The notes below the pieces were generated by a model. It worked only from the letters and a program-made list of their open reading frames with translations, did not search any database and was not told where the DNA came from. A stretch of 63,747 nt of DNA, counting the filler, from Asterionella formosa (taxonomy: Eukaryota), in assembly GCA_002256025.1 (NCBI GenBank). It is 10 parts of 10 records of this genome, joined end to end, with 100 filler letters (N's around TTAATTAATTAA, not from the genome) between each part and the next. Parts side by side here need not be neighbours in the genome. Positions count along the whole stretch, not along the records: positions 1 to 6,307 come from NKIB01012749.1; positions 6,408 to 12,699 come from NKIB01012751.1; positions 12,800 to 19,087 come from NKIB01012752.1; positions 19,188 to 25,474 come from NKIB01012753.1; positions 25,575 to 31,859 come from NKIB01012754.1; positions 31,960 to 38,238 come from NKIB01012755.1; positions 38,339 to 44,617 come from NKIB01012756.1; positions 44,718 to 50,995 come from NKIB01012757.1; 2 more parts are not named here. One strand, given 5' to 3'. A program made the translations under genes and the position numbers. This document shows positions 1-63,747 of the stretch, piece after piece. Numbering within the stretch: the stretch's first letter is position 1; every line of letters begins with the position of its first letter.

Positions 1-569
1 CATGTGAGTTGATCATGGCATCACTTTCGTAACCTGCAATATGCATTCGAAGAATATCGACGACCCGGGAATAACTGGAATTCGATAGGATCGCTAGACT
101 ACATAAAATGCTATCGAGTAGAGATGTAGAGCATAAACGTAATGTCAACAGTTGATATCATCAAGTTCGCGGGTATGGCATGCTAGGTAGAGAACGAGCT
201 CGGTGTGCTGAGAAGTCTTGGGCAAAAATTCAGATGGCACAACTTCTGCATGGGTCCCGAGATGTTCCCCATCTTGAAACTTATCCTTGAACTCAAATGG
301 CTGGCCATTCCATTCCTCTTTGACATCTAAACATTATACATATACTGATTCCATATACATAATCAGTTTATACTTGCTCAGTTGGTTAACATGGTTGTAT
401 TGATATATACATGGCCTGCGACACGTTTTACAACAAGTGAATGTTTTCCATAGCAATCATCAGGATCTTGTATTCCAATGTATAATTGAAAATTCGCTAA
501 GAGCTCTAATGTGGAACATGAATTAAAAATTCTGCATTAATACTATTAGTCACAATTAAATACTAGTGA

Positions 570-1631
570 TTACGCAGCAGAGTTTCGCATTTGTACACTA
601 CGCACCTCGAGATCAGGGAATGATCTCGGAGAGATCAAAGCAGTCGCCGACATCGGAATGCAAAGCTGTGTGCACCTTGTCAGTTCAGGAATAAATTCTA
701 CCTTCGGAGCGGTTTGGCTCGGATCAACACACAAGAGGTCGACGAGACCAGTCATCACGTTGATTTGAGCTGCAAAGCCTTCTGGTACCTTGAGAAATCG
801 CCTCAATTTCTTTTGCTTCCTTTCTGTTTTCGATACTTTCTGGGAATCCATCTCTGGATCAATCGTTTTGCATTGATTCCTTGGAGTGACTTCTACCGCC
901 TTATAGGTCTTCTTACAGCTAATTTCTATCATTGGGTCGCGCTGAGGCACCATAAGGGATGGTATATGAACAATATCACTTTTCAAGTAGGTCTTCCAGG
1001 GAACGACTGCCTGACCAATCGGAGAAATCTCTTGCGATATCTCGAAGAAATCCAGATGGTGACGGTTGGTTGATCTACTTCGTCGTTGACTTGGAATGTC
1101 CGTCCCTGTCGAACAAGCAGTTCTGTAAATTTCGTTGTCACCTTCGTTTCCAACCCTGTCGGATGCGACAGGGCAACCTTTTCTTTCTTTGTCGATCCTT
1201 TCAAAGCAGGTGTCCAAGGGACCGCCAATGCTTATGATCGTTGCGTTGACCTTCGTTGAGTCAAACGACGTTGTCAGCGTCAAGAGGGGACGGTTCATAC
1301 TTTCGTCATGGTCGGTGAGCCTTCGTGTCGAAAGTAGTTTTGTTGAAATGAGATGCTTTCGTAGAGGCTTGCCTGCCTTATTGGGTGAAAATGCGTTAAT
1401 TTTTGGAGCAGTGCGAACTAAATTATGCAGCCGGTTGGTTCGTTTGGTTACGGTACAAGGCAACATGGTGTTGCGTATATTGTGCCCTCTGAGTTGAACA
1501 CTTTCATCCTGCTTCATGTTGGTCTCTTCGTCTCCCAAACTGATCCAAGTGCTGTAGCCTTTTCGAGGGAGCTGCTGTTGCTTTTGTTGGTTCTTGATGA
1601 ATGATTGTGGTGTTGGATGAAATGCAGTCAT
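570..1631 (-). CDS. Hypothetical protein, 353 aa, no recognised domain
   Basis: Long ATG-initiated ORF with coding-like composition relative to AT-rich flanks; no motif recognised. Confidence 0.5.
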   Translation of the reverse strand: MTAFHPTPQSFIKNQQKQQQLPRKGYSTWISLGDEETNMKQDESVQLRGHNIRNTMLPCTVTKRTNRLHNLVRTAPKINAFSPNKAGKPLRKHLISTKLLSTRRLTDHDESMNRPLLTLTTSFDSTKVNATIISIGGPLDTCFERIDKERKGCPVASDRVGNEGDNEIYRTACSTGTDIPSQRRSRSTNRHHLDFFEISQEISPIGQAVVPWKTYLKSDIVHIPSLMVPQRDPMIEISCKKTYKAVEVTPRNQCKTIDPEMDSQKVSKTERKQKKLRRFLKVPEGFAAQINVMTGLVDLLCVDPSQTAPKVEFIPELTRCTQLCIPMSATALISPRSFPDLEVRSVQMRNSAA

Positions 1632-1949
1632 TTGAGAGAATTTATGTCAAAAGTCCTAACCATGGTGAACTGAAAAACCCAAAGACACCAATCCCCGAGG
1701 GAACATGAACGATGTTCGTGTTTCGTCAGGTTTAACATGTGTTCAGTACCAATGCTGGTACATGCCTCGGTCAAAAGTTCACAGTCGTTTTTACATGAAG
1801 TTCGAACATCAAGGACAAGTCCCAGACAGGTTGAAATGGGCTTGCTTTGTATTATTGACATTTCCTTTTATCATGGTAAGGACGCTACGTATATAATTGA
1901 AGAATTTGTGTGCGCGTAGCTAGAGAGGCAGTATGATATCCCAGTATTT

Positions 1950-2302
1950 TGACGCATACGTCAGTAATAGCATAGGATACATAATTTCATACTGTCCGAG
2001 ATCATCATTAATTGCAAATGTCAGTTCGATATTTCGACATGTACGACATGACACCTTCTGAAAATGACAATATTATGCTGGCCTTTGATATTTAGAGGGA
2101 GTAATAAATAGGATTGATACCGGTAGTGACGCATACGTCAGTAATAGCATAGGCTACATCATTTCATACTGTCCGAAATCATCTTAAATTGCAAATGTCA
2201 GTTCGATATTTCAACATGTAAGACATGACACTCTTCTGAAAATGACAATGTTATGCTGGCCTCTGATATTTAGAGGGAGTGATAAATAGGATTGATACCG
2301 GT
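1950..2302. repeat. Direct tandem duplication, 2 x ~177 bp
   Basis: Near-identical units start at 1950 and 2127 (tgacgcatacgtcagtaatagcatagg...aataggattgataccggt). Confidence 0.95.
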
Positions 2303-5300
2303 GCTACCGGTAGGGTTCAAACATTTTTCGGAACAAGAATACCGGTATCGGTACCGGTACTCGAGTCGGTCGCATGGGGTTCTTTTCTTCAATAATCTGA
2401 AGAGCACACGAGTCTTGTCCAAGAAACAGTACGATGTACAAGGTTGTGTTCATTCTGGTCCATCATAATGATGAAATCTTATTTCAATGTTCCTTCGTCA
2501 TTTTCTGGGCAATTCATGTATTCCTTGGGATATGTTGATGACAACAACGTCAAAGTAATCCTTGTAACATGTTGCGGAATTTGTAATAGACGAAATATGA
2601 ATGACACATGCAAAAATAGGTTTTATATTTGGTGTGCATTGCTTGACATTGTTGATCATTTCCAGAAGCAATCCCCACCCTAGCTATCATCTTGTTTTTC
2701 GATGAGAACTGTGGATGTCTAAGTAATTATTGGTACCTCTAAGTATTTTTTATTTAGGGGCAATATAGGGGCACAGTGGATTTTTCGGCAGTCCAATTTT
2801 AGGTTTGAGCAGGGACCATCGAGCAACGTCAGGAGTAGAATTTTCACGGGAAAAAGTTTAGACACATCAAAAATGCATGGACCACCGAATATACCGGTAC
2901 CGGTATATGCATGAAAAATAGTCACTCAAGAATGATTGTAACAAGCATCGAAAATTCGACACAATGTTGTGGGACAATGTTGTGAAGCAACAAAAGTATG
3001 AAACAGAAATCGAATGGTAAGGAGTGAAAATGACAAGTAGGGAGTAGAATAAAAAGTGAAAAAGAAAATTGGTCAGCGGAGAAATGGTGTGAAAAATTAT
3101 CAACGCCATTTCATTAACAAATGTCAACTCACACTTTTTTATTGTTGCAACGAAATTTCAGAAACGTTCACATCGGGCCTGGAGCAGCAGAAACCGATGC
3201 ATGCATGGATTTGGAGGTAGTGGTTTCTTGATTGATTTTGAGTTGTGGTGGTGGGGTGGTGGAGGAGCAATAGCTTGTTGATAGTGGAGGTTTGGTGCTG
3301 GGGGTGCAGGCTGCTGGTAGGATCAGGCAGGAGGAGGAGCAGGATGAATGGCAGCCCATTTCGGCAGGAATATCTAGGGGCTATTGAAAATATTGAATGT
3401 AGTTTGGCAGTCCAAAAATGGAGCATATGAAATATACAAAATATGTTTTATGTGATGGGGAATTGCAGGATAAGCAAAGTAAAGATACTTTTTGAACTTT
3501 GAAAGGAATTATTTGATTCATCTCGTCACTTAATTCAGTCTCAATTTCAATTATTATCACTTAAACTTCACATGAAAGCGTTAAAAGTATGGCAGGATAT
3601 TAGGCATATATAAACTCGCAAAATGAATGTGCATCACTCATTACACCCATCACCGCTGATACCAATGCGAATCACCTCTCTGTCCCCAATGCTTTGGTGA
3701 CCTATAACTATCTTGTCCTCACTTGCCCCCAACCTCAAACCTTTCGAGCTAAAAAGTGGCCTAGAATATTAGATAGAGGCATGGGAGAACGGTGAATTGG
3801 ACTCACCCCACTTGGCATCTCCTGGAACATATTCACACTGACGCTTTGGTCACCTATAATGCCTACTACAAAGCATTCCACCTACAGAGCCTCTGATTGG
3901 TTGTAACAAAGCCTTATGCGTTCATATAGCTTTATGACCATCAAGTTTACCATAGACAATGCTTCTTTACCCTGCTCAGGATCGGACCTGTCCCTTTCTG
4001 AATTCTAGCCTTCCATTATCTGACTCCAATAAACCCGCATTCCAGCGACTGAAATAACCACGTATGTTGGGTTGATAGTCAGCCATTCCTGACAATGGGA
4101 TCCATCAGTTTGATCTCCCTTTACGCTGAGGAAGATTAATACATGCATTCTCCCACGTCCATGGAGGCTTGATTAACTATAATCAACAACAATTCTCTCA
4201 AATTACGCGAGATAAATACCTTCAGGGCTCTGCCAATATCTCATTAATTATCTACAACACCCCTAGCACCATACTCAGTCTATGTAGCTCATTCGCATCA
4301 CAATTGGGTACTATGTACCCTGGTGCGTCCCAAAGGACTCCAAAGTGGTAGCTAGAAGAGTGTCCATAATGGGTACTTATTTTGCAATTTATATAGGTGG
4401 ATGTGCAGCACACATTGTCTTGATGTGATGTTGTGGTTACTAACTCAACTAGCAAACCAAAATCACTATTGACTTTAAAACACAACATATCATGGTAATT
4501 CTTCCCGCTTGCAGGCACTCTTTTGTATGTTCTTCGCTTTAGTAGCTACTGCTAGCTAGCTGTACTAGCTTGGCGTCTACTGTTCTTATTACTAGCCTTG
4601 AACTTTCTTCATCGAGTCTCGGTGTTAAGTACGTCTGCAAATAAAAACCATCATATTTCCATGATGCATCATAGGATTGTGATCATCGCCCACTCAAGAT
4701 ATAGAAACATAGAACCATTCTTAAATATAGTTCTAAATTTCGATCCATTTCATCCTATTTTAGACGGTGATATCGATGAGAATTACGATCATGTTAAGAT
4801 AGATGTATGACAAAAGTATACACATCATAGGCCCATGTTTAACTAATTATATGATGCAATGGTATCATACTAACTATGATAGTATCATCATTCTTCAAGT
4901 TCGGTAAAATATTAATAAATCATCATAGTTACAGGATACCTTGATCATAGTTTTGATCCAAAAATTATCATATATATGAAAATCCTGTGCCACTTTGCGT
5001 ACGATACCCTTGATCAGCCATATTTGCTGATACATTTTATTTGCAGACGTTATTAAAAGCTTAAACCAAACTCTAATTTCAATCCCCTACTTTTCATTGC
5101 AACCACATCTCATCTTTCTTGAGAGCTTATTCTTTTACAGTGTTACCTTTTATTAACATGAACCTTTTTTCAATTGATGCAAAGGGTCCTCAGTCTCAGT
5201 AGAAGATCTCTTTGACATGCACATCATCATTTGATGAATTAGACTTCTGTTGAGTCCACAATCCTAGTTTTTCATGATACATATACTGGTAGCCATTTAG

Positions 5301-6219
5301 CGACGCTCAAGTATTCTTGACATAGTGGTAGCTACCAGGGTACTATGACGTCATGGCTCATCCTGAGGATCCAAAGTGACTGGCCTTGACATCTAATGTT
5401 TCATCAGATAATATGATGTGCATAATACATACTATACAGGCTTCAGGTATGTGATCATATACTAAGATTACTACTTTATGCTACCCTCACATGATGAAAG
5501 GCTAACTACTTGGGTTGGAAAAGTTTAAAACTTCTGGGGAGCTCGAAGAAAGCTCAACAAGGTGACGAGTCCTCTGATGAGGTCTGGAGGAAATCTCCTT
5601 GGGACCCACCACCCAAAGACATGTAAAACCAGGCAGCTACCCTGTCGAAGGTATCAGGTGACTACCAATAATCATTCAGCTTTTTTGGTTAAGTATGTGT
5701 GTGACTAAGCAAGCTAGGTATAATGCACCACCACCTCACCAGGACAAGGAGAACAAAAGTGGTGGGACTTCCCCCCTCCCCCCCCCCTGTTTCTACACTT
5801 TCTCTTTTTGGGTTTTGTATCAACTTGATGGATCTAGGCAGGTAAAATATGTACTGCTGACAAGGTTGGGTCTGTGTCAACAGTTATAGTTTAAGATTAC
5901 TATGGCTAGGATGAAAAAGGAATTGAAGACGCCTATTATACTACATATGGATGATGTTGCTTGTGCTGAGTCAAAACGTGTACCAGTATGTAGCTTGCAA
6001 TACGTAAACTAAATGAAGCAACCCCAGAAGTGACAACCGGTACCTTGTAACTATGTTGAGGTACCACGTAAAACAGTCCATGTGACATAGCGACGATGCA
6101 ATTCAAGTACATGGTACCTGGTACCAGGTACCAGGTACGGTACCGGTACCTTGTAGTCTAGTGCATGCATGAACACATGCATGGACATGAAAGGTTTTAG
6201 ACCTTGCACATTACTTCAC

Positions 6220-6307
6220 ATTTTTTTTATTTTTTTTATTTTTTTTTTTTTTTTATTTTTTTTTTTTTTTTTTAGAAGTAAAGTTGTACAAGGTAGATAA
6301 GTAGAGT
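6220..6307 (-). mobile_element. Probable 3' poly(A) tail of a non-LTR retroelement or retrocopy, at the contig end
   Basis: ~50-nt interrupted poly(T) on + strand, followed by ~35 nt and then the contig end. Confidence 0.4.
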
Positions 6308-6407
6308 NNNNNNNNNNNNNNNNNNNNNNNNNNNNNNNNNNNNNNNNNNNNTTAATTAATTAANNNNNNNNNNNNNNNNNNNNNNNNNNNNNNNNNNNNN
6401 NNNNNNN
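6308..6407. other. Artificial contig linker (N44-TTAATTAATTAA-N44); also at 12700, 19088, 25475, 31860, 38239, 44618, 50996 and 57372
   Basis: Identical 100-bp linker with stops in all six frames occurs nine times; contig lengths are non-increasing. Confidence 0.99.
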
Positions 6408-6628
6408 TAGTACCAGGTATGCTCATAATACTGGGGGTGTCGTGACCATCCTGACGATGCGGCTTTCTTGCTGCCATAAAGATAGCAAGGTGAGAAGGAC
6501 GGACACGCAAAATGTTTGTACCAGAATATACCCGAAAGTGACACAATATGATATGGCATGCAATGGGAAATCAAATCTTCATGGTATGAAGTACAATCTA
6601 ATGATAGAATGATGACACCACAAATGAG

Positions 6629-8542: not shown

Positions 8543-9332
8543 TCCTGAGTCGATGTGCGCGAGTAATTCACAACAAACAAACAAAAACAACACCAATGAT
8601 ATCTCAACCTCACTTGCACGAGGTGCAGTATTTTAATAGAAGATGCAATATCCCTGAAATGTCCCAAATAGATTTTAAAATACCGGGTACCTGGTACTAT
8701 ACATCTGTTTCATATCTTACTGTAATTAGACTACAGTACCGGTACCGGTATCGGTATTATGGCTGATGCCATACAATCATACTAACTACCAGGTACTACC
8801 AGTACAGCAGTACTTATACCGGCATAGGCAGACAGCCCCAATCGTACCATACATACCTGTATCCACAATCCATAATGCTCCTCAGAGTACATTACTTAAG
8901 ATGGTACAGGTAGTCTACTGCCGGTACCAAGTACCATCGACGGGCCTGCGTTACGATCTTTTGTCGTAAAGCAAGAAATGTGTACTGTAGTTAGAAGAGG
9001 AGTACCCGGCACCAGGTAGTACCTGGTACGTTGTGCCAGGGGTAGTCTACGCGCACAGGCAATCCCGCAATGTACTACCGGTATGTTTGTATGAATGAAT
9101 GATGAATTTTTACCGGTATCCAGTACAGGTACACCGATTTACGTATGCTTTCTACCGGTAGTTCGCCAGCAAAGGACATCAGTATACCGGTAATGCAAAT
9201 TAGGTACACTACCCTGGTACCGGTATTGGCCATGTTCCCGGGGTTACCATATCTATCTCAACATCCTCATGGCCCTCCTGATGATTCAGCTCACTTTCTT
9301 TATTTACTAGGCCATTAAAACGCAACAGCACC

Positions 9333-10962: not shown

Positions 10963-10985
10963 TACCTAAATAAGTGTTGAATATT

Positions 10986-12212: not shown

Positions 12213-12799
12213 GGAACTGTATATAAAAATTCTTAACACCTTCTTATTGTGACACAATATGTACTGGACTGTACTGGTAAAGGTAGTCTATAATGACTCC
12301 GATAGTCTATCAGGTTGGAGTACTGCTACCAGGTACTTGGTACCCAGCTCACTTCTTCTTGTAGACTACCTGGTACCAGGTACCTGTTACCCTGGTACCT
12401 GATGGTACTCCTCTTTTCTGTACATGAGTCGTATCTTGAACATCCATCCACGTTGCAAAGTTAAAATAATCGTAACAGGTACGAGGTAGGAAGGAGTACC
12501 TGGTACCAGGTTCTCCCTGGTGCCACCAGGTTGCATGTTTACATAGTTCTGATGCTTTCATGGTGTCCTAGTTGTTAATATCTGCATATGATGCTCCATA
12601 CATGCGCCGTACAAACCATACCGGCGCAGCCACCAGATTAGGTACATGCGTGAGTGCTAACAACGATGTACTTGGAACAGCAATAGAATAGTCATAATAN
12701 NNNNNNNNNNNNNNNNNNNNNNNNNNNNNNNNNNNNNNNNNNNTTAATTAATTAANNNNNNNNNNNNNNNNNNNNNNNNNNNNNNNNNNNNNNNNNNNN

Positions 12800-17381: not shown

Positions 17382-17715
17382 TGTCGTCTTGAATGTAATG
17401 AGAGTTGTCTTTGGTTTATTCGTGCGATTTCTTTGTCGTGTCTCGTCGTCGTTGTCGTTATCGTGATTAAATTCTGCAAAAATAGTTTCTCTATCACTTG
17501 TCGTAGAATTCTACGATGCAACTCATTATTGCTCCTGCATGATAGATGGAAAATGCCGAGAATTTTGTCGATCCTCATTGGTACCAGGTACCTGGTACCA
17601 ATATGTAGTACATATAGCTACATATGAGGCATGATGATGGTAATGTATACGATTGGACTACCGGTACCCATATGTATGCGATTGAATTACGGGGAATGAT
17701 AGAAGGGCTTATATG

Positions 17716-19087
17716 TGTCAAGAATATAGCATCAATGGCTATAATGAGTCACAAGGACTGTGGACTCGACTATAGTCCAATGAGTCAAATGGTGCGTTCC
17801 CATGTCAAGAAGCTTGCTACCGGTAACGAGATTGATGTCTTAGATCAATCAGAAGAAGGTTTACATCAACGAAAAGGGAACACGAAGAAAAGGTTCTCGA
17901 AGTGTGATGAATGGGATTGAAACTTAGTTTTAGTTTAATCTTATAATTAAGAAACAGTGAGAATTGACAGAGTAAGGTCAATAGCGAAAACTAGCACGAA
18001 GGCTAGCAGCAGAAAGAAGATAACAATACTGGTGGTATATCAGGTAAGTTCTACGTAAGAGGAACCCGTCAGATGGGAAGGAGTACGAGACCTTTCAACA
18101 CGCTTTAAAGCGTTCACTTTAAGGCCACAGGCTACTCAGGAACGATGGGAAGTGACGAAGACACGTCAGTGAGGTTGCCGACATTCGATGGGCAAGATGC
18201 TAAATGGCACATGTGGAAAGCGAAGTTTCTCGCATACGCGTGCTACAAGAACTTTCAAGGAATACTTAACGGTGACGAACTACCAAGAGGAGAGAAAGAC
18301 CTAAAGGGCGATACGATCGTGTTGTCGGATGCTGACGAGAGACGCATCCGAAGGAGCAACACAGTTGCTTACGCAAGTCTGATAATGGCATGCCAGAGTG
18401 GGCCATTCGGACACGTAAATAATGCAAGAAGTGCCGAGTTTCCTAACGGCAATGCTAAAGAAGCATGGGACAAGCTCATTTCTACGTATGAGTCAGGCAA
18501 CATGGCAAATGTCATTGCCTTGTCCCACCAATGGACGAAGTGCACTCTAGGGGAAAACGAGAACCCCGACAGCTGGTATGTGGAGTTGGATCGAATCCAG
18601 GAACGATTGGGCAATACGAGCTCCGCCGTTTCGGATGGTGCCTATGTGGCACACATGATCAACAACCTACCTGAAAGCTACAAGAGTTTGGTAGTAGGAA
18701 GGTTCGGCCTGGCGCGCAACACGCTAACGGTCGAAGAGATTAAGACAGACATCCGGGACTACTACGATCTATATGTCCGGGATGACGTCAAAACGACTAA
18801 CAAGAACAAGAGTGAACAGGCCTTCTACACGAAAGGGAAGTTCAAAGGTGACTGTCGTAAGTGTGGCAAGTATGGCCACAAGGCGGCTGAATGTCGCAGC
18901 AAGGGCAATAGTGCCGAAAAGAAGGAGCTCACTCCTGAGCAGAAAGAAAAGAGGAAAACGATCAAGTGTTTCAAGTGCCAACGCATGGGACACTACGCAA
19001 GTGAGTGCACCAGTAACAGTGCATCTAAGAATAATAGAAACGAAGAAAACAACACGACTACATCTACCCAGCAAGGAATGTTCGTCG
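17716..19087 (+). mobile_element. Ty1/Copia (CoDi-like) LTR retrotransposon, 5' part: LTR ~17716-18100 plus gag; cut by contig end
   Basis: TG...CA segment whose 5' boundary coincides with the limit of homology to the copy at 57472-59129; gag follows. Confidence 0.9.
18145..19087 (+). CDS. Copia gag polyprotein (5' part, open to contig end)
   Basis: FDG....W..WK.KF, AKEAWDKL, NPDSWYVEL, NNLPESY and two CX2CX4HX4C knuckles. Confidence 0.9.
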
Positions 19088-25390: not shown

Positions 25391-25946
25391 ACCGACGATG
25401 ATGAATATATAGAACTCGTGCATATAATGAACAAGAGGCGGCATAGCATACAAGAGGATGCATCGATATGAAAANNNNNNNNNNNNNNNNNNNNNNNNNN
25501 NNNNNNNNNNNNNNNNNNTTAATTAATTAANNNNNNNNNNNNNNNNNNNNNNNNNNNNNNNNNNNNNNNNNNNNTTTTGGGTGATACAATTTCATTTTTA
25601 TTTTTGTGGAGAATGGATTTTTTCGGTTTAAATCGAGTAGCCGTTACATGATACTTTTTCAAAAAAAATGATACCAAATCGAAAATGATAAGAACGACCC
25701 TAAGCAAATGGAAAGGGTGTATATTGGTGAAAGCTCCGTTTAGCGATATACATTTTTTAAACTCTCAGGAAGTCTGTGTTTGACTATTCTGACTCAATTT
25801 TTTATTTTTAACCCTACCCGGTATCTAGTCTCCTCCAATCATTGTTACAAAATAGTTTTTTACCTCTCCTGGCGTCTTCATCAATTAGAATTGGAACAGT
25901 CAACAAACGAACGAACAGAATCCATTTGCAGTTTAACAAATCGAGG

Positions 25947-27287
25947 ATGAATGCGATGAGTCGTAGAGTATCGAGCGGAACTGCACGTGATTGTCTATCG
26001 TCGTCGGTGAAATTATTGTCCAGAAATGTAGTCAGTTGTAATCAGAAGAGAATGGTTGCAACTACCGGTAGAAGTCTTCGAGGCGAAGGAGCTCGTACTT
26101 CTCGCTTCCATCAACCAACATCATGCTACCAGCACTTCTCCACTTCGTCAAGAGTAAACTTTGCAGGTACCCTGAGGAATATGATGAAACCGTTCTACCT
26201 AAAATGTCACCCTGACGTTCAGGCAAGCGAGACTGCAAAAGAAGTCAACCTGGCTGCACTGAAAACGATCAATTCTCTCATGGACACAATGGAAGCGACC
26301 TGCAATGGAAAACTCGTGGATTGGCCGATCACTTTGGATGTGGAGTTTCTTATACCAATTCACGACCCCAAGGTCAAGAAGATGGAGCTAACCAGTCGAC
26401 GCACTGTGGAGCTCCTCCTTCCACCAAAGTCGTTGCGAGACACTATAATTCGGTCCATGGGAGAGCAAAAGCAACAAGCAATGGAATCACTGCAGCGGAA
26501 AATAAAATTTGAATTTGCCAAGATTCTAAAAATTGCTGGTTTGCCTGCCCCAGATTTAATTGACTATGCCAATGACGATGGGTCCGCGATTGACATGAAT
26601 TCTTGGCTGCATGATGAAATTGGGTTAAACGACTACGAAGACGGAAATCCGTTGAAACCAAAGCGGGGAATGAATCATAGCTTTGGCGGACGCCAACGTT
26701 TTAATACCAATCAACGCCCAGAACGTCCACAAACTCCGTGGGAACAGTCTAGAGCCCGATTTACCAGTAACATTGACCAAAAGAAGCTGAACGAAATGTA
26801 TCAAGGGGCTCTAGTCGAAATGCAAGCTGATATTGCCACTTATGGATATATGAAAGACGCAAGGCGACGCCAAGACTTTATAAGCAGCATTCTCGCACGA
26901 GTCCGGCTTGACAAGGATGCAACAAAAATAGACACCATGGAGCAATTGGTTGCTTTTCGACGCTTCTCCCTCATTTTCAACGATAATTTTGACGACTTGA
27001 AGTTTGAAGACATGGGTAAAATGTGGGAAGAATTAACTATCGTTTTGACGGACCCTCGTTCCTATAGCACGGCAGGAACGAGCATACGCAAACGAAGGAC
27101 ACGTTTTCTAGATAGTGGCTTTAGGTTCACTTATAGTGCTGACAATACTGTCACGGTTCATATTCCCATTGACTTTCAAGATGATGAACTCATGGTGGAA
27201 CTGAAACAGAATTTAAGCGATTTTGCTGAACTTGTCGGTGACAGCTTTGACGATATCGTGAAAAAATGCATGAAGAAAAGCAGTTAA
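25947..27287 (+). CDS. DUF4460 (TCAIM-like) protein, probably mitochondrial
   Basis: MKPFYLKCHPDV....AKEVN...LK.INS motif; Arg/Ser-rich presequence; first ATG at 25947. Confidence 0.8.
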   Translation: MNAMSRRVSSGTARDCLSSSVKLLSRNVVSCNQKRMVATTGRSLRGEGARTSRFHQPTSCYQHFSTSSRVNFAGTLRNMMKPFYLKCHPDVQASETAKEVNLAALKTINSLMDTMEATCNGKLVDWPITLDVEFLIPIHDPKVKKMELTSRRTVELLLPPKSLRDTIIRSMGEQKQQAMESLQRKIKFEFAKILKIAGLPAPDLIDYANDDGSAIDMNSWLHDEIGLNDYEDGNPLKPKRGMNHSFGGRQRFNTNQRPERPQTPWEQSRARFTSNIDQKKLNEMYQGALVEMQADIATYGYMKDARRRQDFISSILARVRLDKDATKIDTMEQLVAFRRFSLIFNDNFDDLKFEDMGKMWEELTIVLTDPRSYSTAGTSIRKRRTRFLDSGFRFTYSADNTVTVHIPIDFQDDELMVELKQNLSDFAELVGDSFDDIVKKCMKKSS

Positions 27288-29249: not shown

Positions 29250-31859
29250 ACGGAGTAACAGCAGCGGCTACAATCAGTACAGTATTTATTAGATATACCG
29301 TATTCTGGTATTTTACCAATGCATATCCATACGCACCAGTCCAATTCTTGGACACGTCCATGCTGTCGTCGTGTATCATAGGGTGTTTTTTTAGGCGGTT
29401 CTTTCTTTGAACTATCATATGAAACATGCAATCGGGTAGGCAGTAAAAGTACGAAGTAACAGTCGTAGTCTAGTATCATTCATAGCTATGATGTATATCT
29501 AACTAAATAATGGTGGTACCGGTATACCGGTAGTCCCATATGATGGTGATGGTGCAACATCAAGACAAGTATACATCATCAAGCAATTGGATGCCGACGA
29601 AAAGGCAAGAAACAGCGAACAAGAATGACGAGAATGGCTGCAATTTTCACTCCTACAGGTATTTTAATATACATTTCTACGTACAAGTGAGCAACAATTA
29701 CGCCGATATGATGATGTTTGACTGTGTCAAGCATCATCGTCTCCCGATTTCGGAGGCGAAATGCATGAGTAGGGAAAATGACGAATTCAACAACTTCACG
29801 TGACGAATTTGGTGGCGTTGCAACTTCCGATTACACATATCGACGTCACGAAACTGGTTCTATCGACGTTGTAACTGACCTAAATCGACAATAATCGGAC
29901 CTAATAATTCTGTTTCGGGCCAACTCGGCATCATCATGACGACAACCCTATGCCACACCTTCCGCAAGGTGCCCTCGTGACAGTTACCAGTACCTGGAGT
30001 ACCGCCAATCCTACAATACAATTTTCGCCTACTGGTAGTCTACATAGGTACTCCTAGTATACATCTAAAATATGACGTTTTGATCACGCATCACGGAGAA
30101 GCATTTACGACAAGTTTGTTGACGTTAGGGACGAGGTGGCATCACCGGTGATGGGTACCCTGGTACTCAGCAAACGCGAACGTCACAGGGGTGGTACCTG
30201 GTACCTAAAGTATAGGAACAAGGCGTAGATGTTTCCCATCACTGTGACAATCGATGGTGTTGCCATCAGCCAGATGAGAGAAGCTGTTTTGTACTGCTGA
30301 CATTATTGCGGTGGTACATAGATGATCAGCTAGCTTGAGGTCGAAGGCCACACATATATCATCATCAGTGAAGGAGCAATAAGGAAGTTTTGGATAAATA
30401 ATGCATGCAACATACATAAAACTAAAAGCCCAATGGTTGTTACTATGTATTCACGAGGCCCACATGATTTTCCCCTTTCGATTTGATATTTCATAGACTA
30501 GAGACTGTCTACAATTCTATGATTGCATGAATAAATTTATATACATGTGTATGTATAAAATAAAAGAAATACCAATATCATCGTCAAAGTTACCCTGGTA
30601 TCCTAAATACCGGTATTACGATGATACGATGATGGCTGTTTGGCTGTGTTGGCATCATCGTCTCCCAATTTCGGGCGGAGGCAAAATGCATCAGTAAGGA
30701 AAATGACGAATCGAACAACTTCACGTGATGACTTGATGGTGTAGCGACTTCTGATTACCCATATCGACATCACGAAACTGATTCTATTGACGTTGTGACT
30801 GACCTAAATTGACAATAATCGGATCAAATAATTCTGTTTTGGGCCAATTCAGCATCATCGTGACGACAATCCTAGAGGCCACACCTTCCGCAAGGTGCCC
30901 TTGTGAGAAAGTACAAAAAAATGGAGCAGTACCACTGTCTCAAAATATCTTCTACATAGCTATTTATTGACGTACTGATACATTCCGGTTTTTGCACATG
31001 ACTTCTATGTACATAAACTACCAGGGTACCGGGACCACCGGAAAAAACGTTTTTAATTAGACAAAGATTAAGCTAACTACCTCGATTACCGGACCTTCCA
31101 GCAGTACAAGACACAATATTGTACTACGTGAAACATGTGACCAGGTACCTGGTACCAGTACTAACTGGTAACCTAAAGTACCTGGTACCGGTACCGGTAT
31201 AGGAACAAGTCGTTTTAGACGGTTATGATCAAACGATGGCGTTACCTGGTACCATCAGCAACACGCGAGAAGCTGTTTCGTTTTGCTGAAGTCGTTATCC
31301 TGGTGGTGGATCATCAGTGTGCTTGAGGTCGTGATCGGCATGAAGGAGCAAGAACAAAGGACGATTGGATAAACAACAGTAATGGATAATACTCTTGTAA
31401 CTACCGGTATCTAGAAGCCCTCCTGTGTGTGTAATAATACCGGAATTCTCGAGGTCCATATGATTTTTCCCCTCCAAAAGATTCTCATAGACTACCGTAC
31501 CTGGTCCAACCATGCAAATATTGCACATATAAATATATATATACATGACTATTTAAATAGATACCACTGTCGTCGTCATCGCAGTGAGAAGCATTCACGT
31601 ATTCTTGACGTTGAAGACGAGATCGCATCACTGCAGATGCTCAGCAAACACAAACGCGATCGTCACTACCTGGTACTACCTGGTGCCTCCTCTATTACCG
31701 TACTCCTCATGAAATACCGGTACAAGTTACGGTACTCTGGAACTGTACGAGTTACCAGGTACCTACGTATGTCCAATGCATCATATATGAACCTACATTC
31801 CGTTGTGCCAACGAATATGTTGATCATACAATACGTCGTCGTGATCGTTTCCCACATAA
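29250..31859. repeat. Non-coding repeat family with a diverged ~0.95-kb tandem duplication (29700-29980 ~ 30640-30905; 30200-30560 ~ 31170-31560)
   Basis: Shared blocks such as cacaccttccgcaaggtgccc and cctaaagta..taggaacaag; also homologous to 31960-33795. Confidence 0.85.
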
Positions 31860-53298: not shown

Positions 53299-53874
53299 TA
53301 CCAGCATTCCCGTCTTCCCCCTGTTATCAGCGAGGAACATGACGTTTGCACTGTGAAACTCTACCTATTCCTACGTTGGTACCAGGGTACTATGAAACTG
53401 TAGATTTTCCCTAGTACCAGCATTCCCGTCTTCCCCTTCTTGTTTCAATACCCGGTAGGAACATGACGTTTGTACTGTGAAACTGAAGCTATTACTATGT
53501 TGGTACTGTGAAACTGTAGGTTTGCCCTACCAGCATTCCCGTTTTCCCCTTTTTACAATAGGAATATAACGTTGCTACTGTGAAACTATACCTAGTACTA
53601 ATAGATTGGTACTAGGAAACTGTAGGTTTGCCCTACCAGCATTCCCATCTTCCCCTTGTTTGAAAATCCGGTAGGAACATGAAGTTGCTACTGTGAAACT
53701 ATACCTATTACTAAGTTGGCTGGTACTGTGAAACTGTAGGTTTACCCTACCAGCATTCCCGTTTTCCCCTTGTTTCAATACCCGACCTGGTGCCTGGTAG
53801 GAAGATGACATTGCTACTGTGAAACTGTGCCTATTACTATGTTGGTACCATGAAAATGTAGCTTTGCCCTACCA
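53299..53874. repeat. Tandem array of five ~106-122 bp units
   Basis: taccagcattccc at 53299, 53415, 53528, 53634, 53748; each unit carries two ctgtgaaact-like submotifs. Confidence 0.92.
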
Positions 53875-54559
53875 ATCTAATGTCTATTACTGAGTATGTC
53901 GGTATGACATCGCTTACTGCTCCAGCACTAGACCATTAACTAATCCTATAGCTTACAGGCCATTATCCCTTTCTGCTTCCTTGTTCTGATACACTCACGT
54001 TTATCTTGACAGTTGCACGGCCGCTATCGATAGTGCAATATATCACTTGTTATCTGGAATGGCAAAGGTTCCAAGTGCTACAAGGAATGGGAAAAACTTG
54101 GATGTGAAGGGAATACCGATTGCAGATTGCTTGTTTATTCAGGAAAAACGTATTTCTATGGCGTATTTCATGTCTGTTCAATAGACAATGGAAGAGTAGC
54201 TGAGAAACGACTACTACTGGTTAGATACTTTGATCATGATGACCAAGGAAAGGAGAGACTAGATGACAGTTACCTGGATTTTGTTCTCAACAAATTCTAT
54301 GTGGTCCTGGAGTCTGGTTTGTTTTACAAAAAATTATTTGGAACTTCGAGGAAATTTCGGAATAATATAAGACCAGCAATTATTCTAGTATGGAAAACTC
54401 ACTTTCCTTGAGATTTTAGATTACATCAGAAAGACAACAATATACCACCAAATGCAGCATAAATAGACGATTTCTTATGTTTCATCACTGATTCATTAAG
54501 ACTTTTCAAAACAATTCTGAGAACAGATAACTTCCTTTATGTTATCGACGGAATTGAAC

Positions 54560-57471: not shown

Positions 57472-59129
57472 ATGATGTTCTGCTTGAGCTCCGGTGCATA
57501 AGGCACATCGGTGAGTTTCAAGTGTTTTCCTTCGTCAGTAGTCGTCAGGGTCACAGTACCAGAGACAGTTGATACTATCTCAGTTCCATTCCCTACCATG
57601 ACCGTTTCACTCACTTGTTTCTTGTCTTCCATCATGCGCACTTCCGTGCAGATGTGAACGGTAGCACTGCTGTTTAACAGCCAGCAATTTCTGACCACGT
57701 CACGAGCAAGGTTAACTTCCTTGTTGTAACTAATTTCGACGCATGTGGCGATGAACATTCCTTGCTGGGTAGATGTAGTCGTTGTGTTCTCTTCCCTTTT
57801 ATTATTTTTAGATGCACTGTTACTATTGCACTCACTTGCTTAGTGTCCCATGCGTTGGCACTTGAAACACTTGATCATTTTCCTCTTTTCTTTCTGCTCA
57901 GGAGTGAGCTCCTTCTTGTCGGCACTATTGCCCTTGCTGCCACAGTCAGCCGCCTTGTGGCCATACTTGGCACACTTACAACAGTCACCTTTGAAATTCC
58001 CTTTCATGTAGAAGGCCTGTTCACTCTTGTTCTTATTAGTCGTTTTGACGTCATCCCGGACATATAGATTGTAGTAGTCCCGGATGTCTGTCTTAATCTC
58101 TTCGAACGTTAGCGTGTTGCACGCCAGGCCGACGAACCTTCCTACTACCAAACTCTTGTAGCTTTCCAGTAGGTTGTTGATCATGTGTGCCACACAGGCA
58201 CCATCCAAAACGGCGGAGCTTGTATTGCCCAATCGTTCCCGGATACAATCCAACTCCACATACCAGCTGTCGGGGTTCTCATTTTCCCCTAGAGTGCACT
58301 TCGTCCATTGGTGGGACAAGGCAATGACATTCGCCATGTTGCCTGACTCATACATAGAAATGAGCTTTTCCCATGCTTCTTTAGCATTGCGTTAGGAAAC
58401 TCGGCACTTCTTGCATTATTTATGTGTCCGAATGGACCACTCTGGCATGCCATTATCAAACTTGCATAAGCAACTGTGTTGCTCCTTCAGATGTGTCTCT
58501 TGTCAGCATCCGACAACACAATCATATCACCCTTTAGGTCTTTCTCTCCTCTTGGTATTTCGTCATTGTTAAGTATTCCTTGAAAGTTCTTGTAGCACGC
58601 GTATGCAAGTAACTTCGATTTCCACATGTGCCATTTAGCATCTTGCCCATTGAATGTTGGCAACCTCATTGACGTGTCTTCGTCACTTCCCATCATTCCT
58701 GAGTAGCCTGTGGCCTTCAAAGCTACCGCTTTAAAGCATGTTAAAAGGTCTTGTACTCCTTCCCGTCTGACGGGTTCCTCTTATGTAGGTCTTACCTGTT
58801 GTACCACTAGTATTGTTATCTTCTTTCTGCTGCTAGCCTTTGTGCTAGTTTTCGCTATTGATCTTCTCACTCTGTCAATCCTCATCCGTTTTTTTTAATT
58901 ATAAGCTTAAACTAAAACTAAGTTTCAATCCCATTCATTACACTTCGAGAACCTGTTCTTCGTGTTCCCTTTTCGTTGATATAAACCTTCTTCTGATTGA
59001 TCTAAGACATCAATCTCGTTAGCAAGCTTCTTGACATGGGAACGCATCGTTTGACTCATTGGACTATAGTCGAGTCCACAGTCCCTGTGACTCATTATAC
59101 CGGTAGCCATTGATGCAATATTCTTGACA
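57472..59129 (-). mobile_element. Decayed copy of the same Copia family as 17716-19087: LTR 59129-58739, gag, aspartic protease
   Basis: Collinear with copy 1; stops and frameshifts; protease WLLNSSATVHI (canonical D-S-G lost). Confidence 0.92.
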
Positions 59130-59283
59130 TACTTTGTACTTTCATCAAGTTTAGATTGTTGTCTTACATACCAGTAACTATTTTTAGTTGGAAGGTAGAG
59201 TAAAATAACGGTGGCTTACAGTTTTTAAGTTGTACCCGGTAGCAGAACCATTATTGGTTGATCATCTATGACGAGCGAACAGA

Positions 59284-60222: not shown

Positions 60223-60278
60223 GAATACGAATTGCCAGTCACGCTAGGGATGTCAGAATATATAGAATAAATTGCTGC

Positions 60279-61905: not shown

Positions 61906-63182
61906 TAGTAAGTAAAATTTAAACAAGCGCTGAACATATCACAATGAAAGTATATGCCGGCAGACACAGAGAAATACAGTTACCAATTGTTGAACTCTAC
62001 TAATGTGTGCTCTATAAATTCATTACATTCCTTGCTGGGTTAGCATACTGCAGGTAGCAGTAGTACGCTGTCTGTCATAAATCCATGTATCGAAGTACTG
62101 GCACATACATACATGTTGGTCATGTGTATCTTCCAACATGCTACTGTTGATGTTCACCATTGAATGACTTTATCAGAGGTATGCTGCAATATTCCTCTCT
62201 TCTACTCCCCTTCATTCAATTCTTGGCCCACAATTATGGTCAACAGGTGATTATTCCCATGCATCTCAAATTAGCACTGATCTGCTGCAGCAATAATTTT
62301 CATCAATAATAATCTCCAACCAACTCTAATGAATTGGTCATCAATTCATGTTACAGAGTAGAGTGTGCATGGTTCCCATTTCCATCCAATGGCTTGTTCC
62401 TCTGGCATTTGGCGTTGATATGGCACTGTCTGGGGTAAAATACTGTGTGATTGGGTTGTCATTTAAAGAACAATCATAGGGCAGCCTTTTCCATTTTAGG
62501 CTTTGAAATATCTGTTGTGTTTCTGTAGTGCATTATATCTCCCCTGTCTGCTGTCTTTCCACTCAGTTGTGTTAGTGTGATGAAGTAAGATACGAGTGTT
62601 CAATATCCCCCCCCACCCCTTCTCCCAAGAGGGAAGGTGAGCGCTGAGCCGACCAAGGAGACAAGCGGAGTCCTTGGCTGTTGGGAGATGGAAGTAAAGG
62701 AACAACGAAGTACGGAGGGAAGAAAGGAAGAAAACCCCTTGTTAGGCTCTTGTGGGCGTTGTGAGCGTCTTTTATACTCAGTAGAGTGGGATGTGATGGG
62801 GGGGCGCAACAACCGATTCGAGCATTTATCCAATGGAAGTGGGTAGTGAGGGCTTGCAACCGTGATGCACAGGTGGCGGTCTGCAACAACGCTGGAGCGC
62901 CACTATGGGCAGCGAAGGTCCGCCAGAAAATGCCTTCAACAGCGAACTTACGGCGCGCAACGTCTCAACATGTTAACGATTTGTATGCAGCAGTACTTAC
63001 AGATGTAGGACGGCGAAGCCCTTCACAGAAGTATGTTGGGTCCAAGGCAAAGGAGCGGTAAGGTCTGATAAACTAGTAAGCAAAATATAAACAAGCGCTG
63101 AACATATCACGACGAAAGCATGATATGCCACCAATCACAGAGAAATACAGTTACCAATTGTTTAATACTACTAATGTGTGCT
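61906..63182 (+). repeat. Pair of ~105-bp direct repeats (61906-62011 and 63074-63182) flanking ~1.06 kb
   Basis: aaacaagcgctgaacatatcac...cacagagaaatacagttaccaattgtt...ctactaatgtgtgct present twice. Confidence 0.85.
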
Positions 63183-63349
63183 GAAGGCAATACACGCCCG
63201 AGGTAGTCTCTTGCCTGCGAGTACACATGTAAACGAGAAGGCAAGTAGCCGCCGAGAAGGGTATTGTTGAGGCAATTCCCGCTCTAGCTATCGTCGAGTC
63301 ATTCGCTTACCTCCTGCCCACAAATTTAGCATAAATGTCAATTTTAGCC

Positions 63350-63520
63350 TACTATTGCCCATCATATAAAATATATTTTGGATATTTCCTATCTTCACCT
63401 CGAAAATTGCCAAAGGTCCGATATTGCCCATCATTAAAATATATTTTGTATATTTCATGTGTTCGCATTTTGGCAAGACAACAGACACCAATTGCCCCTC
63501 GGTTTTCCAGCCCTGGGATT
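63350..63520. repeat. Dispersed repeat related to ~3360-3460, with an internal ~35-bp direct repeat
   Basis: attgcccatcat..aaatatattttg.atatttc occurs twice; matches the reverse complement of atgaaatatacaaaatatgttttatgtgatggg near 3427-3459. Confidence 0.55.
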
Positions 63521-63747
63521 GCCGAAATCGGCAAGGGGTCTACTTAAGGAAACCATTTTATATACTATTCAGATTCTAACAATTTATATCTAGAATTCAC
63601 CTCGTTTTTGTTCGTCTCCTGAAAAGTGGACTCCGGCAATTCACCTTTCACCATGCCAATCGTCGTCCATCATGACCGGTTTGAAGCGAAATCAGTTCCG
63701 CGATGACGCCAGTAGCGACTCTTTTCCTAACGGATGCGGTTGATTGT

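What the first reader, a model, noticed from the sequence alone, without database searches (positions are those of the whole stretch)
1..63747. Pervasive, self-nesting 5-8 bp insertions at TA sites (TA-CCGG-TA, TA-CCAGG/CCTGG-TA, TA-CCG/CGG-TA)
Seen: these words recur in every contig and chain into runs such as ggtacctggtaccaggtaccaggtacggtaccggtacc (~6113-6150). Paralogue comparisons show they are insertions that duplicate TA. (1) Copia LTR1 has gcta[ccggta]acg at 17820-17825, absent in LTR2. (2) LTR2 has tata[ccggta]gcc at 59100-59105, absent in LTR1. (3) cctaaagta|taggaac at ~30204-30219 becomes cctaaagta[cctggta][ccggta][ccggta]taggaac at 31181-31199. (4) [ccgta] at 31495-31499 and [cggta] at 31730-31734 are absent from the mirror copy. 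(5) [cctggta][ccaggta] at 32738-32751 is absent at ~31027. (6) [ccagggta] and [cccggta] distinguish units of the 53299 array. Established: IS630/Tc1/mariner elements insert at TA and leave TA-(few nt of the ends)-TA on excision; Mos1 ends begin CCAGG. Inference: one or more very active elements with CC...GG ends have repeatedly inserted and excised, reusing the TA they create, and act as a genome-wide small-indel mutator. An alternative is a transposon-independent templated insertion process.
Basis: partly seen in the sequence, partly recalled or inferred. Interest (0 to 1): 0.82.

Follow-up and report, generated by a model that had tools for sequence, protein, structure and literature searches.

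The report
TA-duplicating mini-insertions littering diatom intergenic DNA
Two unrelated diatom genomes are peppered, mostly just upstream of genes, with tiny insertions that duplicate a TA and add a fixed palindromic core such as CCGG or CCWGG; they look like the scars of a jumping gene that was not found, and they account for a sizeable share of small indels.

Summary
TACCGGTA occurs 38 times and TACCWGGTA 33 times in the window. Dinucleotide-preserving shuffles give 0.42 and 0.26. All 10 contigs carry such units.

The units are real in contigs from four independent studies and partly polymorphic. They are about 7-fold rarer per TA in long ORFs, and they nest more than chance allows.

The same signature fills a second, unrelated raphid pennate diatom found in metagenomes. 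That organism has its own core set and a 5'-of-gene bias.

Best reading (0.55): these are excision footprints of TA-targeting cut-and-paste elements whose ends begin CC and end GG.

The donor is missing. No TA-flanked inverted-repeat element with such ends and no Tc1/mariner transposase turned up in 63.7 kb plus 634 kb. The expected 3+3 scar CCATGG is nearly absent. A transposon-independent process therefore stays open.

I found no published description.

The parts
6115..6148 (.). Five-unit nested chain TA-CCTGG-TA-CCAGG-TA-CCAGG-TA-CGG-TA-CCGG-TA
   Evidence: Sequence read; parsed.
2118..2905 (.). Cluster of six TACCGGTA units. Two lie in the two copies of a 176-bp tandem duplication and two form a double unit at 2892-2905. 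The cluster is upstream of the minus-strand ORF 573-1646.
8681..9251 (.). Densest cluster: about 13 strict units plus decayed ones, in the divergent spacer between ORF 6632-8632 (-) and the XendoU gene 9582-10959 (+). One unit gain/loss at 9001 and a 10-bp difference at 8926 are polymorphic between populations.
12327..12505 (.). Cluster of CCWGG and CCCTGG units upstream of the DUF1350 gene 10989-12287 (-). Its 31-mers recur at many genomic places: word depth is about 20-37 times the single-copy level.
17582..17597 (.). Double unit TA-CCAGG-TA-CCTGG-TA inside a TTGG|TA|CCAA context, in the Copia LTR region
17818..17825 (.). TACCGGTA private to the Copia copy on contig 3. The copy on contig 10 has a single TA here.
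59098..59105 (.). TACCGGTA private to the Copia copy on contig 10. The copy on contig 3 has a single TA here.
26063..26070 (.). One of the few units inside a long ORF (25812-27284). The 6-bp insert keeps the frame.
29517..29532 (.). Two adjacent TACCGGTA units
31179..31199 (.). Three nested units (CCTGG, CCGG, CCGG) at a site that is a single TA in the older paralogue near 30204-30219
31493..31499 (.). TA-CCG-TA, absent from the mirrored copy on contig 6
31728..31734 (.). TA-CGG-TA, absent from the mirrored copy on contig 6
32736..32751 (.). Two units (CCTGG, CCAGG), 14 bp, absent at about 31029 on contig 5
47370..47399 (.). Chain of CCGG, CCGG and CCTGG units upstream of ORF 47973-49010 (+)
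53380..53389 (.). TA-CCAGGG-TA present in one unit of the 113-bp tandem array and absent from the other aligned units
53449..53457 (.). TA-CCCGG-TA in one array unit. The neighbouring unit has CAATA|GGAA.

Best explanation
The words are excision footprints of TA-targeting cut-and-paste DNA transposons of the Tc1/mariner/pogo-IS630 kind, or of another TA-duplicating DDE family. The element ends begin CC and end GG.

Inferred steps:
1. An element integrates at a TA and duplicates it.
2. It later excises with a staggered cut that leaves a few end letters on each flank.
3. End joining seals the break as TA-core-TA.

How the cores would arise:
- CCGG is two letters from each end.
- CCWGG carries a central A/T. 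This is either the third end letter resolved from an A·A mismatch or one untemplated A added during joining.
- CCG/CGG and CCAGGG/CCCTGG are trimmed or extended variants.

Each jump leaves one scar while the copy number stays constant. A few very active copies could therefore write tens of thousands of scars over many clonal generations without being common themselves.

Scars survive where they are neutral and where chromatin is open, that is, in spacers 5' of genes. Each scar adds a TA in a GG-TA-CC setting that is hit again, which gives nested chains.

Shown: TA duplication, fixed cores, enrichment, polymorphism, ORF depletion, nesting, and a second diatom lineage.
Inferred: the transposon, its ends, and the cut geometry.
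For: 1. Each resolved event is TA to TA-core-TA at an otherwise unchanged site: six in the window and one between two samples of the second diatom (TA to TA-GAC-TA; the only indel in 7790 bp with 3 mismatches).
2. Only a small, organism-specific set of palindromic cores is enriched. In the window: CCGG, CCWGG, CSG and GWC. In the second diatom: GC, CTAG, GTAC, CATG, CCGG, CTCGAG, CWG, GWC, CSG and CCWGG. GGCC, GCGC, CGCG, TCGA, AGCT, ACGT, TGCA and GATC are at or below expectation. Palindromic cores are what symmetric inverted-repeat ends would leave.
3. The centre of TACC-N-GGTA is A 145, T 129, G 1, C 0 in the second diatom, and A 17, T 16, C 3, G 1 in the window.
4. CTCGAG and CTC/GAG in the second diatom match the first letters of the Stowaway end as printed in a primer of PMC4561436.
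5. Adjacent CCWGG units are close to randomly oriented: AA+TT 129, AT 41, TA 38. This fits independent events rather than pure slippage.
6. Units per 100 TA: 0.7 inside long ORFs (6 per 881 TA) against 3.0 outside (91 per 3064 TA). In the second diatom, units per kb are 0.11 in ORFs against 2.3-3.8 in spacers, and in tandem spacers 99 lie in the 5' half against 36 in the 3' half.
7. CpG-transition derivatives (TACTGGTA and TACCAGTA, 9 each) lead the one-off variants, as expected for scars of mixed age.
8. The published mechanism covers TA duplication, a cut 3 nt inside the element for SB and mariner, and end-joined footprints (passages of PMC7827188, PMC4505599 and PMC4561436).
9. Tc1/Mariner elements are annotated in a diatom genome, at 1.79% in T. 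rotula (Table 4 of PMC11842555).
Against: - No donor was found. There was no TA|CC...GG|TA inverted-repeat element in the window or in 128 loci totalling 634,524 bases. All hits are chains of the motif itself.
- No recurrent extension follows TACCAGG, TACCTGG or TACCGG.
- No Tc1/mariner/IS630 domain was seen in 14 + 66 window ORFs or in 76 + 70 ORFs of 200 aa or more from the second diatom and L059. The only transposase found is piggyBac-like.
- The 3+3 scar CCATGG, expected from a mariner-type 3-nt cut on CCA...TGG ends, occurs 0 times in the window and 9 against 285 in the second diatom. The dominant 5-nt core needs an extra assumption.
- The commonest class in the second diatom is a single C or G between TAs (TACTA 1122 and TAGTA 1081, against about 260 expected each). 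That is unusually short for a footprint and is partly a (TAC)n microsatellite.
- Polarity was not fixed by an outgroup for any single event.
Confidence: 0.55

Rival explanations
1. A transposon-independent, enzyme-driven process. A TA-directed nuclease (for example a domesticated transposase) makes a 2-nt staggered break. Fill-in duplicates the TA, and a fixed short sequence is added or templated during end joining, so no mobile element ever occupies the site.
For: - No donor element or TA-family transposase was found in about 0.7 Mb from two diatoms, despite hundreds of units.
- The cores follow a simple formula, X-(W)-X' with X = C, CC or G, in both organisms.
- The 5'-of-gene bias could reflect an activity coupled to open chromatin.
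- An intact 1006-aa piggyBac-like ORF exists in the second diatom (L047:16014-19031). This is a lead only.
Against: - The cores are specific: CCGG is enriched but GGCC, GCGC and CGCG are not. The core set differs between the two organisms. This is easier to explain by different element ends than by untemplated addition.
- No known enzyme writes such cores (recalled, not searched exhaustively).
- A few hyperactive copies in a genome of tens of megabases would be missed in 0.7 Mb, so the missing donor is weak evidence.
Confidence: 0.2
2. Replication slippage, unequal exchange or polymerase-theta templated copying among existing GGTACC-type words generates and spreads the units, as in a microsatellite with 6-7-bp units.
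For: - Direct orientation of adjacent CCWGG units is in mild excess: 129 of 208 against 104 expected.
- The polymorphism at 9001 adds or removes one 7-mer next to a near-identical 7-mer.
- A 39-bp difference at 31151-31189 lies between two GGTACCT words.
- Other units lie within about 70-240 bp of the private Copia inserts.
- (TAC)n runs exist in the second diatom.
Against: - 73 of 83 chains in the window are single units.
- The private inserts sit at TAs whose flanks share nothing with the insert except TA (GGC|TA|TAATG and TTGC|TA|ACGAG).
- Mixed orientations (AT 41, TA 38) cannot arise by slippage.
- This route can amplify units but cannot seed them.
Confidence: 0.1
3. The enrichment mainly reflects selection for a cis-regulatory word (GGTACC or GTAC-containing) in promoters. 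Insertions are only one of several ways such sites arise.
For: - Units concentrate in divergent and 5' spacers.
- G is enriched at positions -1 and -2 of unit flanks (0.42 and 0.41, against 0.26 and 0.23 for all TAs).
Against: - Units also accumulate in Copia LTRs, in a tandem array and in convergent spacers at 2.65 per kb.
- Many different cores behave alike.
- One-off decayed variants are common: 56 against 38 intact TACCGGTA, which shows weak or no conservation.
- Selection does not explain the TA duplication.
Confidence: 0.07
4. Artefact of assembly, linkers or contamination (KpnI/AgeI-like sites).
For: GGTACC and ACCGGT are common cloning sites. The window is a concatenation of short contigs.
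Against: - The same units appear in contigs of four independent studies and in unrelated metagenome assemblies.
- They are depleted in ORFs.
- They decay by CpG transitions.
Confidence: 0.02

Closest known systems
Tc1/mariner/Sleeping Beauty excision footprints (TA + end letters + TA)
   Same: - A TA target is duplicated.
- A few fixed letters lie between the two TAs.
- The form is palindromic or has a central mismatch. The SB-type core CWG is itself 4-5-fold enriched in the second diatom.
- The scar forms by end joining after a staggered cut (passages of PMC7827188).
   Different: - The density is about 1.5 per kb overall and up to 7 per kb of divergent spacer, with no resident element seen.
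- The dominant cores are 4-5 nt, and the 3+3 form is almost absent.
- The units nest heavily.
- Such genome-wide accumulation was not found in print.
Stowaway MITE / plant-type mariner (Osmar) footprints
   Same: Footprints retain the TA duplication and short pieces of the inverted-repeat end (PMC4561436 passages). TA-CTC-GAG-TA (18 against 0.2 expected) and TA-CTC/GAG-TA in the second diatom fit an end starting CTC.
   Different: - The window organism lacks this class (0 TACTCGAGTA).
- Its cores are CCGG and CCWGG.
- No Stowaway-like element with such ends was found.
Microsatellites / minisatellites with 6-7-bp units
   Same: Head-to-tail runs such as 6115-6148, with some unit-number polymorphism.
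   Different: Most units are solitary, orientation is mixed, and they arise at naive TAs with TA duplication.
hAT/Ac-type footprints and P-nucleotide palindromes
   Same: Short palindromic additions at a repaired break.
   Different: Those palindromes copy the flanking DNA (PMC4561436 background passage). Here the core is the same whatever the flank.

Membership tests
Tc1/mariner/IS630-type excision footprint | The site is a TA, and the TA is present on both sides of the inserted letters | tested here: met
   All seven resolved events. About 70% of TACCGG words are followed by TA (76 of 108 on both strands).
Tc1/mariner/IS630-type excision footprint | The inserted letters equal the first and last letters of a resident element's inverted repeats | tested here: inconclusive
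   No element with TA|CC...GG|TA ends in 63.7 kb + 634 kb. The whole genome is not held.
Tc1/mariner/IS630-type excision footprint | A DDE/D transposase of the superfamily is encoded in the genome | tested here: inconclusive
   None among 80 window ORFs or 146 ORFs of related loci. Only a small fraction of either genome was seen.
Tc1/mariner/IS630-type excision footprint | Footprint length fits a 2-3-nt staggered cut (up to 3 letters per end) | tested here: inconclusive
   CCGG (2+2) and CSG fit. CCWGG needs 3+2, a mismatch or an added A. CCATGG (3+3) occurs 0 times in the window and 9 times against 285 in the second diatom.
Tc1/mariner/IS630-type excision footprint | Filled, empty and footprint alleles exist at one site | tested here: not met
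   Over 6408-12699 in four runs, only empty/footprint-type differences were seen and no insert longer than 7 letters. Contigs drop rare variants, so this is weak.
Microsatellite by slippage | Units arise as tandem copies of an existing neighbour, in the same orientation | tested here: not met
   73 of 83 chains are single units. 79 of 208 adjacent pairs are inverted. The private inserts share only TA with their flanks.
Polymerase-theta templated insertion | The insert copies nearby sequence of variable content, with microhomology at the junctions | tested here: inconclusive
   The cores are constant regardless of flank, which argues against. Similar words do lie within about 70-240 bp of the private inserts.
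Selected cis-regulatory motif | The word is conserved and bound by a factor | not testable with these tools
   Only indirect evidence: a 5' bias set against frequent decay.

The most novel reading that the evidence does not exclude
Diatoms as a group may carry a TA-directed 'palindrome-writing' mutational process. It would supply on the order of a third of small indels and would continually remodel the DNA 5' of genes. It would be driven either by a domesticated transposase or nuclease with no mobile element at the site, or by an unseen low-copy element whose cut leaves 4-5-nt self-complementary overhangs, a geometry not described for TA-inserting transposases.
Probability: 0.25. Interest if true: 0.9.

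Novelty: new variant of a known kind. Interest (0 to 1): 0.74.

Why it matters
If these are footprints, a handful of hyperactive cut-and-paste elements have written tens of thousands of scars into diatom genomes.
- They would act as a site-specific indel mutator focused on promoters.
- Their rate is roughly 6% of the base-substitution count in the comparisons available: about 9-10 units against 153 substitutions.

This would change how intergenic divergence, promoter turnover and 'TIR transposon' annotations are read in diatoms. It would also point to a very active transposase that could serve as a genetic tool for diatoms.

If no element exists, it is a new kind of sequence-specific insertion process.

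Either way, the TA-x-TA word spectrum is a simple, species-specific genomic signature. It can be screened across algal genomes and metagenomes.

Tried and rejected
- Whole-genome search: no genome is held for this window.
- The candidate 111-bp element TA|12376-12486|TA, with 13 of 16 matching ends, was rejected. Both ends are themselves decayed unit chains, and the alternative joint 12391>12492 in reads has only 20 letters on one side.
- Inverted-repeat scans restricted to CC...GG ends and for any TA-flanked ends returned only motif chains, the contig 5/6 mirror, (GTA)n runs and one unrelated 106-bp MITE-like element (L064/L044).
- Extensions after TACCAGG/TACCTGG/TACCGG and after TACTC/TACAG/TAGTC and similar words gave no recurrent end sequence.
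- The inverted-repeat tool on the window gave only the contig 5/6 mirror and the spacers.
- A viral-contig scan with the double-unit pattern gave 10 single matches, which I take as background.
- Overlaps between metagenome loci gave only two usable population pairs.
- Literature searches for the words and for genome-wide footprints in diatoms found nothing relevant. One search failed on term format.
- I looked for the Mos1 end sequence in PMC4505599 with a 6-letter motif and did not find it.
It was repeated on one contig.
- Parts of contig 2 without cover in run X16 are not evidence of anything.


Full report
WHAT THE WINDOW IS

The 63,747 bases are ten contigs of 6,276-6,307 bases, sorted by length. 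They are joined by artificial N44-TTAATTAATTAA-N44 spacers, and GC is 42%.

Long uninterrupted ORFs encode a kinesin, an S28 peptidase, XendoU, DUF1350, TMEM144, a cytidylyltransferase, a ChaN-like protein and Copia gag. The XendoU ORF has a 99%-identical metagenome protein. Its nearest named relative in the listing, at 63%, has a name truncated to 'Asterio' (TAXON_ID 33640, MMETSP); I take this to be a diatom. Runs that hold contig 2 are labelled lake, freshwater or algae metagenomes. I therefore treat the organism as a freshwater diatom and go no further than that. No whole genome is held.

THE OBSERVATION

- TACCGGTA occurs 38 times. The order-1 Markov expectation is 0.37 and the order-3 expectation is 2.60. 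100 dinucleotide-preserving shuffles give a mean of 0.42 and a largest value of 3.
- TACCWGGTA occurs 33 times against a shuffle mean of 0.26.
- Among all TA-N(1-7)-TA words these stand out. Next come TACTGGTA and TACCAGTA (9 each), TACCGTA 8, TACGGTA 6, and TACCAGGGTA and TACCCTGGTA (4 each).
- With a strict core set (CCGG, CCWGG, CCG, CGG, CCCGG, CCGGG, CCAGGG, CCCTGG) there are 97 units in 83 chains: 73 single, 8 double, one triple and one of five units at 6115-6148.
- Every contig has 2-22 units, 621 inserted bases in all. Seven units are shared by descent between the mirrored ends of contigs 5 and 6, so about 90 are independent.

THEY ARE INSERTIONS THAT DUPLICATE A TA

- The two Copia copies (17716-19087 against 59129-57749; 1388 columns, 82 mismatches, 7 gaps) each carry one private [TACCGG] at a site where the other has a single TA. 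They are separate copies on contigs 3 and 10, not the two LTRs of one element.
- The end of contig 5 and the start of contig 6 are inverted copies (1271 columns, 38 mismatches). They differ by [TACCG] at 31493, [TACGG] at 31728, a 14-bp two-unit insert at 32735-32748, and a 39-bp stretch between two GGTACCT words. The other five differences are small indels of 1-3 bp.
- A three-way alignment confirms CCTAAAGTA|TAGGAAC against CCTAAAGTA[CCTGGTA][CCGGTA][CCGGTA]TAGGAAC.
- In the 113-bp tandem array, one unit has TTGGTA[CCAGGGTA]CT where the others have TTGGTACT. One has CAATA[CCCGGTA]GGAAC where a neighbour has CAATAGGAA.
- Polarity is not fixed by an outgroup for any single site. A roughly 100-fold excess cannot, however, be produced by deletions.

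REAL, MOSTLY FIXED, PARTLY POLYMORPHIC

Contigs of four runs from four studies were laid on 6408-12699.
- A contig from run X1 spans 6408-9221 with 7 other letters and no gap, so the dense cluster at 8681-9251 is not an assembly artefact.
- There were 30 single-letter differences and four indels: TTT, T, a 10-letter difference at 8926 inside a chain, and GTACCCG behind 9001.
- The insert at 9001 is present in part of X5 and in X7. With the change at 9007, it adds one 7-letter unit next to a near-identical one.
- These are assembled contigs, so they show presence and not absence.

WHERE THE UNITS LIE

- There are 6 units per 881 TAs inside ORFs of at least 180 aa, against 91 per 3064 TAs outside.
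- Between ATG-trimmed ORFs of 200 aa or more, the window has 0.16 per kb in ORFs and 6.97 per kb in divergent spacers, though the numbers are small.
- Flanks are enriched for G at positions -1 and -2 (0.42 and 0.41, against 0.26 and 0.23 for all TAs). The favoured setting is GG-TA-CC, which each unit recreates.
- Nesting exceeds chance. 97 units dropped at random on 3064 TAs give 94.0 chains on average (minimum 88 in 2000 runs); 83 are observed.
- One-off variants of TACCGGTA total 56 against 38 intact copies. They are led by the two CpG transitions (9 each), so the units are of mixed age.

A SECOND ORGANISM

- L059 belongs to the window's organism: 148 bases are 100% identical to the end of contig 7.
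- A large set of contigs ('group B', GC 0.43-0.46) has no nucleotide similarity to the window.
- Group B encodes intron-poor genes with domains I recall as diatom-typical (DUF6824, DUF3804), plus HSF and ferritin.
- Its asparaginyl-tRNA synthetase is 82% identical to that of Seminavis robusta, followed by Amphiprora, Amphora, Fistulifera and Nitzschia. I place it among the raphid pennate diatoms.

After masking the ascertained matches (28 loci, 341,752 bases), group B has:
- TACCAGGTA 87 and TACCTGGTA 73 (0.8 expected each), but TACCGGTA only 23 (2.1 expected);
- TACCAGTA 69 and TACTGGTA 52 (4.0 expected each);
- other TA-x-TA words: TAGCTA 296 (66.7), TAGTCTA/TAGACTA 109/86 (about 17.5), TACTGTA/TACAGTA 106/80 (about 19), TACGGTA/TACCGTA 64/54 (10.1), TACTCTA/TAGAGTA 75/70 (about 18), TACTCGAGTA 17 (0.2), and TACTACTA/TAGTAGTA/TACTAGTA/TAGTACTA 296/244/149/88 (about 3.7).

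Only some palindromes are enriched. GGCC, GCGC, CGCG, TCGA, AGCT, ACGT, TGCA and GATC are not. The centre of TACC-N-GGTA is A 145, T 129, G 1, C 0 (unmasked).

Units per kb are 0.11 in ORFs, 3.84 in divergent spacers, 2.31 in tandem spacers and 2.65 in convergent spacers. In tandem spacers 99 lie in the 5' half and 36 in the 3' half (unmasked, so spacer densities are somewhat inflated by ascertainment).

Two samples of one group B locus (L048 and L071; 7790 bases, 3 mismatches) differ by a single indel, which is TA to TA-GAC-TA.

Non-diatom loci from the same scan carry little more than the ascertained match.

SEARCH FOR THE DONOR

- Scans for TA|CC...GG|TA inverted repeats returned only chains of the motif itself (window; all loci).
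- Scans for any TA-flanked inverted repeat returned motif chains, the contig 5/6 mirror, (GTA)n runs and one unrelated 106-bp element.
- No recurrent sequence follows TACCAGG, TACCTGG or TACCGG when TA does not, nor the other cores.
- Pfam found no Tc1/mariner/IS630 domain in 80 window ORFs or in 146 ORFs of group B and L059. The one transposase is piggyBac-like (L047:16014-19031).
- The 111-bp candidate at 12376-12486 is made of decayed units and was rejected.

MECHANISM

Published work on Tc1/mariner elements gives the following (passages only: PMC7827188; PMC4505599; PMC4561436):
- integration at TA with TA duplication;
- a first nick three nucleotides inside the element for SB and mariner, which leaves 3' overhangs on the donor flanks;
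- end-joined footprints made of those letters.

This fits the TA duplication, the fixed and palindromic cores, the organism-specific core sets, the near-random orientation of neighbouring CCWGG units (AA+TT 129, AT 41, TA 38) and the neutral-site distribution.

Because cut-and-paste leaves one scar per jump while copy number stays flat, a few very active copies could explain many scars and no donor in 0.7 Mb. This is inference.

What does not fit simply:
- CCATGG, the 3+3 product of CCA...TGG ends, occurs 0 times in the window and 9 times against 285 CCWGG in group B.
- So CCWGG needs an extra assumption. It could be 3+2 trimming, a terminal A·A mismatch, one untemplated A on CC...GG ends cut two letters in, or a 4-5-letter self-complementary overhang.
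- The very abundant single-letter units in group B are short for footprints and are partly a trinucleotide repeat.

I give the footprint reading 0.55, a transposon-independent TA-directed process 0.20, slippage or templated copying as the main source 0.10, selection on a promoter word 0.07 and artefact 0.02.

RATE

In the comparisons available, about 9-10 units stand against 153 substitutions (82 + 38 + 3 + 30). 7 of 21 small indels are clean TA-x-TA units, and 9 of 21 if the two motif-associated complex events are counted. These are small samples.

NOVELTY

- Full-text searches for the words, for genome-wide footprints, and for diatom Tc1/mariner elements and footprints returned no description of this pattern. 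For most hits I saw only listings and abstracts.
- Tc1/Mariner elements are annotated in Thalassiosira rotula at 1.79% of the genome (Table 4 of PMC11842555). A thesis on mariner elements in Amphora is cited in PMC7017206 (reference list).
- Subscription-only papers and supplements were not seen and could bear on this.
- That Mos1 ends begin CCAGG is recalled, not verified.

Noticed in passing
window 6308-6407 and nine further places: The window is ten separate contigs of about 6.28 kb, sorted by length. They are joined by an artificial N44-TTAATTAATTAA-N44 spacer. The spacer creates spurious TAATTAATTA and palindrome hits.
   Followed up: yes
window 12573-12699: A very high-copy repeat starts at 12573 (TGTTAAT...). 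Summed word depth in this bin is hundreds to over a thousand times that of single-copy bins, and many contigs have loose ends at 12573. It looks like the start of an LTR at the end of contig 2.
   Followed up: partly
window 30605-31859 and 31960-33174: The end of contig 5 and the start of contig 6 are inverted copies. Identity is 100% over the first 127 bases at the junction and falls to about 91-94% further out. This could be a large palindrome with a conversion gradient, or a fold-back assembly.
   Followed up: partly
window 31151-31189: A 39-bp difference between the mirrored copies lies exactly between two GGTACCT words. The units may also seed microhomology deletions.
   Followed up: partly
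window 17716-19087 and 57749-59129: Two copies of one Copia family (gag, zinc knuckle, Pol beta-barrel) at 92.4% identity, on different contigs.
   Followed up: partly
window 53299-53875: A 113-bp tandem array of about 4.3 units at 76% match, in an ORF-poor part of contig 9.
   Followed up: partly
window 6226-6274: A long T-rich tract (T runs broken by single A) just before the end of contig 1.
   Followed up: no
window TACATA / TATGTA genome-wide: TACATA (41 against 18.5 expected) and TATGTA (40 against 19.2) are about 2-fold enriched. They could be CpG-decayed TA-CG-TA units, which would be a further footprint class.
   Followed up: no
L047:16014-19031 (-): An intact 1006-aa ORF with a piggyBac-type DDE_Tnp_1_7 domain in the second diatom. 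It could be a domesticated or an active element. Its ends were not examined.
   Followed up: no
L064:7400-7509 and L044:6278-6387: A 106-bp TA-flanked element with 18 of 20 matching inverted ends starting GGGTTGGCCAGAACC. It is MITE-like and its ends do not match any enriched core.
   Followed up: no
L041:100-400 and 2400-3220: In the second diatom, whole stretches of spacer read as chains of TA plus 1-6 letters (C, G, GC, GAC, CCAGG and others). A sizeable part of the intergenic DNA may have been written by this process.
   Followed up: partly
L044 vs L064: Two samples of one locus differ by an apparent tandem duplication of about 54 bp (overlapping alignment blocks). It is unrelated to the TA units.
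   Followed up: no
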